Positions 5,021-35,702 of a DNA stretch of 64,000 nucleotides are shown here, one piece after another (positions within the stretch are counted from its first letter, which is position 1; every line of letters begins with the position of its first letter). The stretch comes from Nitrosopumilaceae archaeon. Its GTDB lineage: Archaea; Thermoproteota; Nitrososphaeria; Nitrososphaerales; Nitrosopumilaceae. The notes beneath the pieces were generated by a model. That model was not told the origin of the DNA and ran no database searches. It saw nothing but the letters and a program-made list of their open reading frames with translations. The translations under genes and the position numbers were made by a program. The DNA lies in the NCBI GenBank assembly GCA_049414205.1, contig JBMSGE010000002.1, forward strand, positions 7,207 through 71,206, given 5' to 3'.

Positions 5021-5365
5021 TTAGATAGCATCTTGTCCTTGCTCTACGGTTCTTATGCGAATAACGTCACTTACATCGGAGACAAAGATTTTTCCGTCAC
5101 CGGGCTTCCCAGTAGAAGCATTAGAGGCGATAGAATTCACAATTTTATTTACTTCTTCTTCTATGCAGACTATCTCTATCTTTCTTTTTGGAACCAGATC
5201 ATCGGCTTCATAGTCCTCGGAACTTGCACCAGATCGTATCATTCCGATTTGGTCCCCTCTACCCCTAACCTCATAAGTGGTCATTCCCTTAACACCTAAT
5301 TTTGTCAGAGTAGTTTTTACTTCTTGAAACTTTGTATCTCGAATTATCGCTTCAATTTTTTTCAT
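5021..5365 (-). CDS. PII nitrogen-regulatory family protein with a long acidic T-loop
   Basis: MKKIEAIIR...GRGDQ...KIEIVC...GKPGDGKIFVSDVSDVIRIRT matches the PII fold signature. Confidence 0.9.
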   Translation of the reverse strand: MKKIEAIIRDTKFQEVKTTLTKLGVKGMTTYEVRGRGDQIGMIRSGASSEDYEADDLVPKRKIEIVCIEEEVNKIVNSIASNASTGKPGDGKIFVSDVSDVIRIRTVEQGQDAI

Positions 5366-32364: not shown

Positions 32365-32721
32365 ATGGATCATAAAGCATTATGCACAAAAGTCTTAGAA
32401 ATTGAACCTCATGTCAGGTTTAGTGGAATTTTAAACTCTCGTGGTGATCTTGCTGTTCAAAGTAATAGAAATGATTCAGAAGCATTACTTAGTGCTGATG
32501 AAGTAAAAATGTCAGTTCACTATACCTTTCAGAGATGGACAAGTATTCAAAACCTAGCTCATAAAATTGGAAATGAAAAAACAAACATTACAGAATTTGA
32601 TAAAGTTACATTGATTAGTCTTTTACTGAATGACGGAAACCTTCTCTTACTAAGCTCTGAACCAGGAGCAAATTATATGGAAATTATTTCTAAAGTTAAG
32701 CAAATAATTCCAGATGAATAA
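32365..32721 (+). CDS. paralogue family A member 3 (divergent)
   Basis: Same length class and layout as the other two members: 'VRFSGILNSRGDLAV' against 'IRLAVISDTAGDILW', and 'LLLLSSEPG' against 'LLFISVDNEP'. Confidence 0.55.
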   Translation: MDHKALCTKVLEIEPHVRFSGILNSRGDLAVQSNRNDSEALLSADEVKMSVHYTFQRWTSIQNLAHKIGNEKTNITEFDKVTLISLLLNDGNLLLLSSEPGANYMEIISKVKQIIPDE

Positions 32722-33243: not shown

Positions 33244-33341
33244 ACTAAAATTCATAATAATATCCATAATTTTCATAATTCTAAGGCATAATTTTCACTT
33301 TCAGGCTTGATAATTAGATAGCATAATAAATAACCAATTTT

Positions 33342-33935
33342 TTGATTTTTAATATGAAGAAAATCGAGGCAATTATCAAACGATCTAGCTATACCATAAT
33401 TGCTGACAAACTAAACAATATAGGTTATACAATAATTGATAAACGAAATTTAGAAGATAGTAAAATTTTTGATAAACAACAGGGCTCAAAAGTTGGAGGT
33501 ACCATTGGAGTAAAAACAATTCCTCTTTCAAAAATTGAATTAGTTGTAGCAGAAAAAGATGCAAGAAAAGTTATTGATTTAATTTCAAAAAAATCCGGTT
33601 TTAATTCAAGCAAAGTTGGAAAGATCTTTGTATCTGAAATGGAAGAAGTTTTAGAAATTGATACTCTAGAAAGTACTCAAGACCTTGAAATAGAAGAGGT
33701 CAAATTTCCCCCAAAACCAAAAATTAAACGAAGTCGCTTAGTTCCATTACAGAAATACACTTTACTTAGACTCCAAACTGTTTATGAAGAAAACCAGGAG
33801 ACGTTAGTCTCAGACCACCGAATCAAATCATTTAGTGATTTTGTAAATCACTGCATAATGGGATACCTTCCATCATTTGAAAAACAACTCAAACATCCAA
33901 CGGTTGTTTATGGAAATAATTTCAGAGAATTTTAG
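33342..33935 (+). CDS. PII-like domain fused to a C-terminal extension of about 90 aa (possibly ribbon-helix-helix)
   Basis: MKKIEAIIKR...KIELVVAEKD...GKIFVSEMEEVLEI is a PII fold. The tail is 'RSRLVPLQKYTLLRLQTVYEEN...SFSDFVNHCIMGYL'. The likely start is the ATG at 33354. Confidence 0.7.
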   Translation: MIFNMKKIEAIIKRSSYTIIADKLNNIGYTIIDKRNLEDSKIFDKQQGSKVGGTIGVKTIPLSKIELVVAEKDARKVIDLISKKSGFNSSKVGKIFVSEMEEVLEIDTLESTQDLEIEEVKFPPKPKIKRSRLVPLQKYTLLRLQTVYEENQETLVSDHRIKSFSDFVNHCIMGYLPSFEKQLKHPTVVYGNNFREF

Positions 33936-34261
33936 ATAGTACTTTCTCCTTCTTCACCTGAGGCGATATCAATTGCTCTCAATACTGGTGAGACAAAGAT
34001 TTTTCCAACAGTTCCTTTCTCTTTTATGATGTTTATCACCTGGTCTTCTTTATTTTCCGGAATTACTAATTCTATGACATATTTTTGACTAAACTGTGGT
34101 TGAAATGTGGCACTTCCTTTTTGAGCATGGATTTCAGGGGGAGGCCTTTTTCCACGGCCTCTTACCTTGTTTACAGTTAGCCCTCCAATCTCAAGCTCTT
34201 TTAGTGCTTCACTAATGTCCATTACGTCATTATTTCCGAGAAATGCTTGGATCTTAATCAT
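33932..34261 (-). CDS. PII nitrogen-regulatory family protein, divergent from amt
   Basis: MIKIQAFL...GRGKRP...YVIELVIPE...GKIFVSPVLRAIDI. Confidence 0.85.
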   Translation of the reverse strand: MIKIQAFLGNNDVMDISEALKELEIGGLTVNKVRGRGKRPPPEIHAQKGSATFQPQFSQKYVIELVIPENKEDQVINIIKEKGTVGKIFVSPVLRAIDIASGEEGESTI

Positions 34262-34305
34262 TTAATAGATTAGCCAGGTTTTTCACAAATAATAGTTTCA
34301 GATTT

Positions 34306-34338
34306 TGATAATCAAGTGATAATCAAACGGTTATCAAA
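34306..34338. promoter_or_regulatory. three 11-bp tandem direct repeats between the divergent PII and amt promoters
   Basis: TGATAATCAAG, TGATAATCAAA and CGGTTATCAAA. Flanked by TATA-like tracts on both sides. Confidence 0.45.
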
Positions 34339-34367
34339 TTTCGTTATTATTATTTAGTTTCACAAAC

Positions 34368-35702
34368 TTGGAATCAATGTTGCCTATAGATACCGGTGAT
34401 ACCGCATGGATGCTCGTAGCAGGAAGCCTAGTACTTTTAATGATCCCTGCACTTGGACTTTTTGAATCTGGTTTACTAAGAAAGAAAAACGCAGTATCAG
34501 TTTTCATGCAGATATTCTTTGGTTTAGCGTTACTTAGTGTGATGTGGTTTGTATTTGGATTTAGTTTAGCATTTGGCCCTGATGAGACAGGTGGTTTGAT
34601 GGGCAACATGGATTGGGTATTCCTTAAGGGTGTTCCATGGGATGAAGCACTTGATTATGCACCAACTATTCCAGGTGTCCTATTTGTGAAATTCCAACTT
34701 ATGTTTGCATGTATTACTCCTCTACTTCTTACAGGAACAATTGCCGAACGTATGAAATTTAGCTCATTTATCATATTCATAGCAACATGGTCAATCTTGA
34801 TCTACTACCCACTAGTTCACTGGGTATGGGGAGGAGGTTGGTTAGCAGAATTAGGCGTTGTAGATTTCGCGGGAGGTATAGTAATTCACACTAGTGTGGG
34901 TATGGGTGCCTTAGCTGCTGCAATGGTCTTAGGACGCAGAAGATTCTTTGGACCTGCAATCGAAATTCCACATAGTATTCCCCTTGCAGTAGTAGGATCT
35001 TCTCTCTTATGGCTAGGTTGGTTTGGATTTAATGCAGGAAGTGCTCTTGCCTCAGGATCCCTTGCAGGAAACACAGTAATTGTAACTCACATGGCCTCAT
35101 CAGTATCAGCATTAATTTGGGTAGGATTATCATGGATGAGATCTGGAAAGCCTTCAGTGGTAGCTGCAGTCAACGGGGCCATTGCAGGGTTAGCAGGTAT
35201 TACTCCAGCGTCAGGATTTGTAAGTGTTGAACATTCATTTGTAATTGGTATTGCTATAGGTATTGCATCATATTCTACACTAGTTCTATTCAAAGAGAAA
35301 CTAAAGATAGACGATGCTTTAGATGTAAGTTCAGTTCACGGAACTGCAGGAATTATTGGTTCACTTGCAATTGGTATTTTTGCAAGTTCCGCAGTAAACC
35401 CAGCAGGTCCAGATGGATTACTCAATTCAGGTTCATTTGATCAATTAGGAGTACAAGCAATAGGTGTTGCAGTAGCAGGTGTCTTAGGATTTGGTGGAAC
35501 TTACTTAATCATGAAAGTTATAGACTTCTTAGTAGGTGTGAGGGTGTCTCCGGAAGTGGAAGATGCTGGACTAGATATCAGCGAACATGCAGAAAGAGCA
35601 TATGCAGATGAGGAAGAATTCAAACTTGAGATGGATGATTATGTAGAAGATCTAGAAAGGAAGGGCGGATTCTTCGGTGGAAGGAAAAAAGGAAAAAATT
35701 AG
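34368..35702 (+). CDS. amt: ammonium transporter (Amt/MEP family)
   Basis: DTAWMLVAGSLVLLM, FAGGIVIHTSVG and SSVHGTAGIIGSL, with about 11 TM segments. The ATG at 34377 fits the TATA spacing better than the TTG at 34368. Confidence 0.95.
   Translation: MESMLPIDTGDTAWMLVAGSLVLLMIPALGLFESGLLRKKNAVSVFMQIFFGLALLSVMWFVFGFSLAFGPDETGGLMGNMDWVFLKGVPWDEALDYAPTIPGVLFVKFQLMFACITPLLLTGTIAERMKFSSFIIFIATWSILIYYPLVHWVWGGGWLAELGVVDFAGGIVIHTSVGMGALAAAMVLGRRRFFGPAIEIPHSIPLAVVGSSLLWLGWFGFNAGSALASGSLAGNTVIVTHMASSVSALIWVGLSWMRSGKPSVVAAVNGAIAGLAGITPASGFVSVEHSFVIGIAIGIASYSTLVLFKEKLKIDDALDVSSVHGTAGIIGSLAIGIFASSAVNPAGPDGLLNSGSFDQLGVQAIGVAVAGVLGFGGTYLIMKVIDFLVGVRVSPEVEDAGLDISEHAERAYADEEEFKLEMDDYVEDLERKGGFFGGRKKGKN

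What the first reader, a model, noticed from the sequence alone, without database searches (positions are those of the whole stretch)
33342..33935. PII-like domain fused to a possible ribbon-helix-helix DNA-binding tail
Residues 5-105 or so form a PII fold. After an acidic linker comes KRSRLVPLQKYTLLRLQTVYEEN...IKSFSDFVNHCIMGYL. This fits a beta-strand/helix/loop/helix RHH pattern with a longer than usual loop. The gene is the next one over from amt and ends against the glnB-like gene. A PII sensor fused directly to a DNA-binding domain would be a one-component nitrogen or energy-status transcription factor. I do not know this architecture as characterised.
Basis: inference. Interest (0 to 1): 0.6.

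Follow-up and report, generated by a model that had tools for sequence, protein, structure and literature searches.

The report
PII sensor fused to probable DNA-binding tail
Ammonia-oxidising archaea carry a nitrogen-signalling (PII-type) protein with an extra, very conserved tail; this tail probably binds a repeated DNA motif in the promoter of the neighbouring ammonium-transporter gene and in the protein's own promoter, which would make it the first PII protein to act directly as a gene switch, though DNA binding has not been shown.

Summary
Window 33354-33935 (+) encodes a 193-aa protein. The ATG at 33354 is the likely start, not the TTG at 33342. It has a Pfam-significant PII domain (residues 1-98), a disordered acidic linker and a C-terminal domain of about 60 aa. 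It lies convergent with a second PII gene, next to amt.

The tail is present in every orthologue and evolves more slowly than the PII domain. Exhaustive sequence search finds it only in this family and in a few stand-alone 57-70 aa proteins.

No sequence or profile method links the tail to a named ribbon-helix-helix (RHH) family, and fold matches are weak. Even so, the best match in each PDB fold search is an RHH protein. The tail is predicted to form a symmetric dimer (score 0.49, best control 0.01), with the basic N-terminal segment KRSRLVPLQK in the interface.

The strongest support is comparative. Palindromic TGATAATCA boxes at 11-bp phasing sit between the PII2 and amt TATA boxes, and one sits just upstream of the fusion gene's own TATA. 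In relatives the boxes occur only where the genome encodes the fusion, even when the fusion is unlinked from amt.

The PII domain lacks the canonical ATP/2-oxoglutarate residues, so its signal is unknown.

This scan reached the same reading earlier on at least six other genomes.

The parts
33354..33935 (+). Fusion gene, 193 aa. PII-like domain: residues 1-98 (nt 33354-33647). Disordered acidic linker: residues 99-122 (33648-33719). Conserved tail core: residues 123-180 (33720-33893). Less conserved C-end: residues 181-193.
33720..33893 (+). Tail core. Basic segment IKRSRLVPLQK (residues 124-134), helix A 131-146, short helix 148-154, helix B 160-180 with conserved N-cap S159. Predicted symmetric homodimer. 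Candidate RHH-like DNA-binding domain.
33308..33316 (.). Single box TGATAATTA in the fusion gene's own promoter, 46 nt upstream of the ATG and 6 nt upstream of a TATA-like element (33323-33334). A box within one mismatch of TGAT(A/T)ATCA lies about 45-52 nt upstream of the ATG in about half of the related loci; the oceanic Nitrosopelagicus loci instead have a three-box array further upstream.
33932..34261 (-). Second PII-like gene (109 aa), convergent with the fusion gene with overlapping stops and divergent from amt.
34306..34336 (.). Three boxes at 11-bp phasing: TGATAATCA (34306-34314), TGATAATCA (34317-34325), CGGTTATCA (34328-34336). They lie between the TATA-like elements of PII2 (about 34287-34294) and amt (about 34344-34356). 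Candidate operator.
34377..35702 (+). Ammonium transporter gene (Amt family). It is the Amt type found beside PII genes in group 1.1a AOA, which the literature calls low-affinity Amt1.

Best explanation
The 193-aa protein is a local, autoregulated one-component transcription factor for the amt1/PII2 gene pair and for itself.

Proposed mechanism:
- The N-terminal PII-like domain is expected to form trimers, as PII proteins do. This was not tested here.
- A 25-60 residue disordered linker tethers the C-terminal domain.
- The C-terminal domain pairs into symmetric dimers. These present the invariant basic segment K-R-S-R-L-V-P-L-Q-K, most likely as a two-stranded ribbon of the ribbon-helix-helix kind.
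- Each dimer reads one palindromic TGAT(A/T)ATCA box.
- Two trimers would supply three tail dimers, which matches the three boxes spaced one helical turn apart.
- The boxes abut the BRE/TATA elements, so occupancy would control recruitment of TBP/TFB. This is probably repression, but activation is not excluded.

The signal sensed by the PII domain is unknown. The canonical ATP/2-oxoglutarate residues are replaced. The signal could instead be a different ligand, or contact with Amt1 or with the neighbouring PII protein.

Shown here: the domain architecture, conservation, the predicted dimer, and operator conservation and co-occurrence. Inferred: DNA binding, the RHH fold, the hexamer, and the direction of regulation.
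For: (1) Architecture and conservation:
- PII Pfam hit above the cut-off.
- AF2 model with a PII fold, a disordered linker and a confident helical tail, pLDDT about 90.
- The tail core is more conserved than the PII domain (0.815 against 0.743). In the most distant orthologues the tail is 64-66% identical and the PII domain 33-34%.

(2) The tail is an autonomous domain. Stand-alone 57-70 aa homologues align without gaps, for example L123:2175-2348 with an RHH-typical N-terminus ..KGFKTVTL...

(3) Tail homodimer. The score is 0.49 against a best control of 0.01. The runs agree in at least 79% of contacts and partner pLDDT is at least 68. That mark was reached by 20 of 30 proteins solved as homo-pairs and by 1 of 23 solved as single chains. 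The interface includes residues 126 and 128-134, helix A against helix B', and B-B' contacts on the symmetry axis (167-167', 168-168', 171-171'). This is the packing expected of an RHH dimer.

(4) The best hit of each PDB fold search (Foldseek and VIA-align) is an RHH protein, ParB of pCXC100 (3no7). Further RHH antitoxins appear among the weak hits.

(5) Operator:
- The three 11-bp-phased boxes keep their positions across 71 non-redundant spacers while the flanks diverge.
- In the window's own genome, the only tandem pair of perfect boxes is this site.
- A box in fixed geometry upstream of the TATA also occurs at the fusion gene's own promoter.
- In a second family with a different gene order, boxes lie upstream of amt in both loci examined, and an 11-bp-phased three-box array (one perfect box) lies directly upstream of the fusion gene in L125.

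(6) Co-occurrence:
- All 17 genomes with the tail that were examined have 11-bp-phased boxes at the amt1 promoter (16 have two or more boxes within one mismatch; one has one perfect and one degenerate box). This includes three genomes of one genus in which the fusion gene lies elsewhere in the genome: on the same chromosome in two (about 240 and 730 kb from amt1) and on another contig in the third.
- Six genomes in four genera have an amt1 orthologue but no tail, and none has the boxes.
- Four of five complete genomes without the tail lack amt1 altogether.

(7) Published work reports that the low-affinity amt is transcriptionally depressed at low ammonia in N. maritimus, with no regulator named (PMC7490402). 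PII genes are known to sit beside the low-affinity amt in group 1.1a AOA (PMC4836417).
Against: - No sequence, profile or profile-profile method links the tail to RHH or to any DNA-binding family.
- Fold matches are weak: Z 4.2 at rmsd 7.0 A over 53 residues, Foldseek E 4.8. Unrelated helical hairpins score nearly as well.
- The proposed strand is a coil in both monomer models. The dimer model's secondary structure could not be inspected.
- The co-occurrence counts involve related genomes and few independent losses (four genera).
- A trimeric PII domain with a dimeric DNA-binding domain poses a symmetry problem. The hexamer solution is only inferred.
- The PII domain lacks canonical ligand residues, so it may not act as a sensor.
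Confidence: 0.55

Rival explanations
1. The tail is a protein-protein module rather than a DNA binder. It would dimerise PII trimers into higher oligomers, or dock the protein onto Amt1, PII2 or another partner, as a GlnK-like regulator of transport. The TGATAATCA boxes would then be read by an unlinked transcription factor.
For: - The tail has no detectable similarity to any DNA-binding family.
- Helical dimerisation domains such as the PKA D/D domain and the phenylalanine zipper score about as well as RHH proteins in the fold search.
- The gene is tightly tied to amt1 and to a second PII gene, as GlnK is to AmtB.
- The homodimer prediction fits a plain dimerisation role equally well.
Against: - The boxes track the presence of the fusion gene even when it is unlinked from amt1. 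They are missing where amt1 and PII genes persist without the fusion.
- A box also sits in the fusion gene's own promoter, which is the usual mark of an autoregulated DNA-binding factor.
- The most conserved stretch is a basic K-R-S-R segment.
- No other candidate regulator gene is conserved in the cluster.
Confidence: 0.3
2. The tail binds DNA at the boxes, but through a new fold or a non-RHH mode, for example a helical dimer with a basic N-terminal arm.
For: - The same comparative evidence as for the main explanation.
- There is no RHH profile signal.
- An extra helix (148-154) lies between helices A and B.
- The N-terminal segment is not predicted as a strand in the monomer models.
Against: - The element order, size, N-cap serine before helix B, symmetric intertwined interface and best fold hits all fit an RHH.
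- The stand-alone homologue has a typical RHH strand pattern, FKTVTL.
Confidence: 0.12
3. The extension is an annotation or assembly artefact, or a decaying remnant without function.
For: None was found. A single genome in the sample has an in-frame TGA.
Against: - An intact 186-232 aa frame is conserved in 132 species genomes across two families.
- The tail is more conserved than the PII domain.
- Near-identical sequence is present in contigs from RNA libraries of three studies. This does not prove transcription.
Confidence: 0.01

Closest known systems
GlnK/GlnB PII signal proteins (Pfam PF00543), e.g. archaeal GlnK of Methanocaldococcus/Methanothermococcus (PDB 2j9c, 7p4y)
   Same: The N-terminal 98 residues match the PII profile and are modelled with the PII ferredoxin-like fold. 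The gene lies beside an amt gene, as glnK does.
   Different: It carries an added domain of about 70 aa on a flexible linker. Q39, R47, Y51, K58, G84, G87, D88, R101 and R103 are replaced by F, V, I, L, N, K, V, E and D. Canonical ATP/ADP/2-oxoglutarate sensing and T-loop modification are therefore unlikely. Known PII proteins act only through protein-protein contacts.
NikR (RHH DNA-binding domain plus ACT-like ferredoxin-fold metal-sensing domain)
   Same: It would work in the same way: a small oligomeric ferredoxin-fold regulatory domain covalently joined to RHH dimers that read a palindromic operator at a transporter promoter. A NikR-like 137-aa RHH protein is present in this genome.
   Different: The domain order is reversed, with the sensor N-terminal. 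The sensor is a PII domain, expected to be a trimer, rather than an ACT tetramer. There is no sequence relation.
MetJ, Arc/Mnt, CopG and omega repressors (RHH proteins on tandem or palindromic repeats)
   Same: The operator consists of short palindromic boxes repeated in tandem on one face of the helix, as the met-boxes are for MetJ. MetJ also has a long loop between helix A and helix B (stated from memory, not tested).
   Different: The box is 9 bp with an 11-bp period rather than 8 bp. No profile similarity was found.
ParB of plasmid pCXC100 (PDB 3no7), an RHH centromere-binding protein
   Same: It is the best structural match in both the Foldseek and VIA-align searches. An Atlas feature hit points to the same family, PF18064.
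   Different: The match is weak (Z 4.2, rmsd 7.0 A over 53 residues, 15% identity; Foldseek E 4.8) and does not establish homology.
PII-controlled transcription factors acting through partners (B. subtilis GlnK-TnrA, cyanobacterial PII-PipX-NtcA) and the archaeal nitrogen repressor NrpR
   Same: They share the physiological logic of nitrogen-status control over transcription of ammonium-uptake genes.
   Different: In those systems the PII protein and the DNA binder are separate proteins. Here they would be a single polypeptide. NrpR is unrelated in sequence and senses 2-oxoglutarate itself (from memory).

Membership tests
PII (GlnB/GlnK, PF00543) | Profile match above the curated cut-off | tested here: met
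   PF00543, E 6e-10, 39.8 bits against a cut-off of 25, covering model positions 1-99 of 102. PDB GlnK hits reach E 9e-10.
PII (GlnB/GlnK, PF00543) | Beta-alpha-beta-beta-alpha-beta core with T-loop | tested here: met
   The AF2 model has E2-9, H10-23, E27-32, E58-65, H67-80 and E91-95 with core pLDDT about 90, and a low-confidence loop at 36-53.
PII (GlnB/GlnK, PF00543) | Canonical effector-site residues (Q39, K58, B-loop G84/G87/D88, R101, R103) and the T-loop modification or target residues R47 and Y51 | tested here: not met
   In the gap-free HMMER alignment to GlnK2 (7p4y) these positions are F, L, N/K/V, E, D, V and I. Only G89, K90 and F92 are kept. The same pattern is seen across the family.
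PII (GlnB/GlnK, PF00543) | Homotrimer | not tested
Ribbon-helix-helix superfamily (RHH_1/CopG, Arc, MetJ, ParD etc.) | Sequence or profile similarity to a known RHH family | tested here: not met
   No RHH family appears in Pfam, NCBIfam or PHROGs at E up to 10 for the tail, its orthologues or the stand-alone homologues. No PDB sequence hit was found. hhalign against a local RHH_1 alignment gives a probability of about 1%.
Ribbon-helix-helix superfamily (RHH_1/CopG, Arc, MetJ, ParD etc.) | N-terminal strand followed by two helices, with an N-cap S/T/N at helix B | tested here: inconclusive
   Helices 131-146 and 160-180 are confident, and S159 is at least 90% conserved. However, residues 123-130 are a coil in the monomer models, and an extra helix (148-154) lies in the loop.
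Ribbon-helix-helix superfamily (RHH_1/CopG, Arc, MetJ, ParD etc.) | Obligate intertwined symmetric homodimer | tested here: met
   Prediction only. ipSAE is 0.49 against a best control of 0.01. The interface is symmetric and includes residues 126 and 128-134, helix A to helix B' contacts and helix B to B' contacts. Strand pairing itself could not be inspected.
Ribbon-helix-helix superfamily (RHH_1/CopG, Arc, MetJ, ParD etc.) | Structural similarity to solved RHH proteins | tested here: inconclusive
   The top hit is 3no7_B (an RHH protein): Z 4.2, rmsd 7.0 A, 53 residues; Foldseek E 4.8. Other RHH antitoxins score Z 2.8-3.1, among unrelated helical proteins of similar Z.
Ribbon-helix-helix superfamily (RHH_1/CopG, Arc, MetJ, ParD etc.) | Sequence-specific DNA binding through the ribbon | not testable with these tools
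   Only indirect evidence exists: the conserved palindromic boxes and their co-occurrence with the gene.
Autoregulated local transcription factor (functional class) | The same conserved motif at the regulator's own promoter and at the adjacent target promoter, co-varying with presence of the regulator gene | tested here: met
   Boxes lie at the PII2/amt spacer in all loci with the gene and at the gene's own promoter. They are absent from six genomes in four genera that have amt1 but lack the gene.

The most novel reading that the evidence does not exclude
A PII-family protein that is itself a DNA-binding transcription factor. Two PII-like trimers would be joined through three RHH-like tail dimers, which occupy three helically phased palindromes at the ammonium-transporter promoter. 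This would give ammonia-oxidising archaea a one-polypeptide switch coupling an as yet unknown nitrogen or energy signal (or Amt1 contact) directly to transcription of amt1. The DNA-binding domain would have no recognisable sequence relatives.
Probability: 0.45. Interest if true: 0.8.

Novelty: new variant of a known kind. Interest (0 to 1): 0.68.

Why it matters
PII proteins are among the most widespread signal transducers, and they are known to act only by binding other proteins. A PII domain wired directly to DNA would be a new way for the family to work.

Ammonia-oxidising archaea control a major step of the global nitrogen cycle. Papers found in the library searched report that the low-affinity ammonium transporter responds transcriptionally to ammonia supply, but they name no regulator. 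I found no paper describing this protein's tail or the TGATAATCA operator.

The protein and operator pair gives a concrete and cheap experiment (EMSA or footprinting) on how these organisms regulate ammonium uptake. The distribution of the pair follows that of the low-affinity transporter, which is itself tied to habitat.

Tried and rejected
- Family scans. Pfam, NCBIfam and PHROGs scans of the tail, its orthologues and the stand-alone homologues gave no RHH or other DNA-binding family. The only hits were sub-threshold noise such as DUF1599 at 18.5 bits against a cut-off of 25.
- PDB sequence searches with the tail and with tail profiles found nothing relevant. One profile (A3) was taken over by PII columns and was uninformative.
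- hhalign of the tail alignment against a small local RHH_1 alignment, mostly NikR-like proteins of relatives, gave a probability of about 1%. That RHH profile was shallow, so this is a weak negative.
- Foldseek against BFVD gave nothing below E 3.5. pdb_via added nothing.
- The ESM Atlas gave only unnamed clusters, plus one rank-20 cluster with the ParB RHH family in 12% of members. This is a lead only.
The contexts of the distant proteins P0125-P0132 were therefore obtained through the genome search and the fetch from genomes.
- A scan of the window's own genome for further regulon members (a box followed by a TATA and an ORF) returned only the fusion gene's own promoter and two probable chance hits.
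- RNA-library contigs from three studies cover the fusion gene at 90-99% identity. One contig bridges the divergent PII2/amt promoter, so DNA carry-over cannot be excluded. No transcript starts can be read from contigs.
- Literature searches for a PII-DNA-binding fusion or for the locus in N. maritimus found no description.

Full report
**What is there**

The window comes from a low-GC ammonia-oxidising archaeon of the Nitrosopumilaceae. The closest public relatives are MAGs named Candidatus Nitrosomaritimum.

The ORF at 33342..33935 (+) is real. Every homologue begins at MKKIEAII, which is the ATG at 33354, giving 193 aa. A TATA-like element at 33323-33334 would place the transcript start close to that ATG, so I take 33354 as the start (inference).

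Pfam P-II (PF00543) matches the N-terminal 100 residues above the curated cut-off (E 6e-10, 39.8 bits against 25). The best solved relatives are archaeal GlnK proteins.

The gene ends against a convergent 109-aa PII-like gene (33932..34261, -). That gene diverges from an Amt-family transporter gene (34377..35702, +).

**The PII domain is atypical**

The alignment to GlnK2 of Methanothermococcus (7p4y) has no gaps, so canonical numbering can be read off directly.

- Replaced: Q39 to F, R47 to V, Y51 to I, K58 to L, G84/G87/D88 to N/K/V, R101 to E, R103 to D.
- Kept: G89, K90 and F92.

From the PII literature (from memory), these replaced residues bind ATP, Mg and 2-oxoglutarate, and carry the T-loop modification and target residues. 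The family alignment shows the same replacements throughout.

The fold is still predicted with confidence.

**The tail**

Residues 99-122 are acidic and modelled as disordered. Residues 123-180 are modelled with pLDDT of about 90 as follows:

- an extended segment, IKRSRLVP
- helix A, 131-146
- a short helix, 148-154
- helix B, 160-180

An exhaustive phmmer search of 1.84 billion cluster representatives with the tail alone found only 12 clusters. Eleven of them are PII-tail proteins or fragments of them; the twelfth (P0123) is the probable chimera noted in passing.

The tail is present in all 80 fetched loci and in 132 species genomes. It is found in 53 of 301 genomes sampled across the order. 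These fall in two main families: 39 of 73 in one and 11 of 11 in the other.

It evolves more slowly than the PII domain. Mean column conservation is 0.815 against 0.743. In the most distant orthologues the tail is 64-66% identical and the PII domain 33-34%.

- Invariant or nearly invariant residues: K125, R126, R128, V130, L132, Q133, K134, T136, Y144, I157, S159, F160, F163, N165, C167.

Two other thaumarchaeal lineages encode stand-alone homologues of 57 and 70 aa that align without gaps. One begins ..KGFKTVTLREKV.., a textbook RHH strand pattern, and one lies beside a winged-helix gene and a Mu-like portal gene. The tail is therefore an autonomous small domain of RHH size.

**Is the tail an RHH?**

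By sequence, no evidence was found.

- Pfam, NCBIfam, PHROGs and PDB profile searches found nothing.
- hhalign against a local RHH_1 alignment gave a probability of about 1%.

By fold, the evidence is weak but points one way.

- The top hit of each PDB fold search (Foldseek and VIA-align) is the RHH centromere-binding protein ParB of pCXC100. The 3no7_B match has Z 4.2, rmsd 7.0 A over 53 residues, and Foldseek E 4.8.
- Several RHH antitoxins appear at Z 2.8-3.1, but among unrelated helical hairpins of similar score.

A two-copy model of residues 116-193 passed the control test.

- The score was 0.49 against a best control of 0.01. Contact agreement was at least 79% and pLDDT at least 68.
- The mark was reached by 20 of 30 proteins solved as homo-pairs and by 1 of 23 solved as single chains.
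- The interface is symmetric and includes residues 126 and 128-134.
- Helix A runs parallel to helix B' (136/140/143/147 against 165/168/172/176/179).
- Helices B and B' touch on the axis (167-167', 168-168', 171-171').

This is the packing expected of an RHH dimer, but I could not see whether the strands pair. I rate RHH membership as open and leaning positive.

**The operator**

The 115-bp spacer between PII2 and amt holds three boxes at an 11-bp period:

- TGATAATCA (34306-34314)
- TGATAATCA (34317-34325)
- CGGTTATCA (34328-34336)

They lie between two TATA-like elements.

Across 71 non-redundant spacers from four named genera, the boxes keep their position. The central box is at least 90% conserved at 8 of 9 positions, while the outer parts of the spacer diverge. 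One MAG has 11 perfect tandem copies.

In the window's own genome (1.4 Mb, 94% complete), the only tandem pair of perfect boxes is at this site. Boxes with up to one mismatch occur at 5.5e-4 per position.

A single box (TGATAATTA, 33308-33316) lies 6 nt upstream of the fusion gene's own TATA. A box within one mismatch lies about 45-52 nt upstream of the start codon in about half of the loci. Many of the others carry a recognisable two-mismatch variant at the same place, and the Nitrosopelagicus loci instead carry a three-box array (one perfect box) 81-88 nt upstream.

A search of the window's genome for this box-TATA-ORF geometry returns the fusion gene and only two probable chance hits.

In the second family the gene order differs: amt is divergent, followed by a small membrane ORF, the fusion gene and a PII gene. 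Boxes again lie upstream of amt, and in one of the two loci examined (L125) an 11-bp-phased three-box array with one perfect box lies directly upstream of the fusion gene.

**Co-occurrence**

| Genome class | Result |
|---|---|
| Genomes with the tail, amt1 locus examined | 17 of 17 have 11-bp-phased boxes (16 with two or more within one mismatch) |
| Genomes of one genus with the fusion gene away from amt1 (beside PitA/PhoU-like genes) | 3 of 3 still have the boxes at amt1 |
| Genomes in four genera with an amt1 orthologue and PII genes but no tail | 0 of 6 have the boxes |
| Complete genomes without the tail | 4 of 5 lack amt1 altogether |

The three genomes with an unlinked fusion gene are included in the 17. 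The genomes are related and independent losses are few, so this is suggestive rather than statistical proof. It is, however, what a trans-acting regulator and its operator would show. No other candidate regulator is conserved in the cluster.

**Mechanism proposed**

The PII-like domains form trimers (assumed from the family). The tails pair into dimers, so two trimers give three tail dimers. This matches three boxes spaced one helical turn apart, and the flexible linker of 25-60 residues could span them.

Each dimer would read one palindrome through the basic segment. R126 and R128 would face the DNA, and S127 and L129 would face the core (inference).

The boxes abut the BRE/TATA of amt and of the fusion gene, so occupancy would most simply block TFB/TBP, giving repression and autorepression. 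Activation cannot be excluded.

What changes occupancy is unknown. It could be a non-canonical ligand, or capture of the PII domain by Amt1 or PII2.

**Context in the literature**

- PII genes beside the low-affinity amt of group 1.1a AOA have been noted before (PMC4836417).
- The low-affinity amt is depressed at low ammonia in N. maritimus and is missing from deep-ocean AOA (PMC7490402).
- Neither paper mentions the tail, the boxes or a regulator, and my searches found no such description.
- Some public annotations call the protein 'transcriptional regulator' and others 'P-II family nitrogen regulator'. I take these as automatic names, not evidence.

**Earlier notes of this scan**

After my own analyses I looked up earlier notes. 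The same architecture and the three-box operator had been reported on at least six other genomes, with the same partly supported verdict.

- the controlled dimer prediction
- the stand-alone homologues
- the box in the gene's own promoter
- the genus in which the fusion gene is unlinked from amt1
- the domain-wise conservation figures

**Verdict**

A one-component, autoregulated regulator of amt1 is the best explanation (0.55). I class it as a new variant of a known kind, namely a one-component regulator with a ferredoxin-fold sensor and a small dimeric DNA-binding domain, as in NikR. It would be unprecedented for the PII family.

Noticed in passing
L051 (Nitrosopumilus MAG), PII2-amt spacer, about locus 5152-5351: The operator is expanded to 11 perfect tandem TGATAATCA boxes at an 11-bp period in a 200-bp spacer, where other loci have three boxes. 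This is a natural repeat expansion of the candidate binding site.
   Followed up: partly
L122:1610-1822 (-) and L123:2175-2348 (-): These are stand-alone 70-aa and 57-aa homologues of the tail in other thaumarchaeal lineages. The first lies beside a winged-helix gene and a Mu-like portal gene, so possibly in a provirus. The second lies near a PIN (VapC-like) gene and an AbrB-like gene. Three more 57-aa relatives are P0200-P0202.
   Followed up: partly
L151, L152, L153 (one genus of the same family): Here the fusion gene forms a convergent pair with a canonical-looking PII gene (B-loop TGSSGDGKIF) beside PitA-like and PhoU-like phosphate genes rather than amt. The amt1 gene elsewhere in these genomes keeps its boxes.
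   Followed up: partly
G169:C1:522982-523203 (row): The fusion reading frame in this complete genome carries one in-frame TGA.
   Followed up: no
P0123 (140 aa, on a 509-bp contig): A NusB-like N-terminal segment is joined to the tail. It is a single short contig and is probably an assembly chimera rather than a second architecture.
   Followed up: no
window 32365-32721 (+): This 118-aa gene of a three-member paralogue family stays with the cluster. It lies upstream of the fusion gene in the window's clade and downstream of amt in Nitrosopumilus and Nitrosopelagicus loci. Its function is unknown, and Pfam gives only an insignificant DUF6659 hit.
   Followed up: partly
L124:3187-3459 (-) and L125:1772-2020 (+): In the second family a conserved 82-90 aa membrane ORF (motif ..YALGAPQPLSKPP..) lies between amt and the fusion gene.
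   Followed up: no
G000:C13:6178-6285 (locus L089): This is a 137-aa protein with an RHH_1 domain (29 bits), conserved in most relatives. Judging by its length and N-terminal RHH, it is probably NikR-like. It is the only Pfam-recognisable RHH protein in this genome.
   Followed up: no
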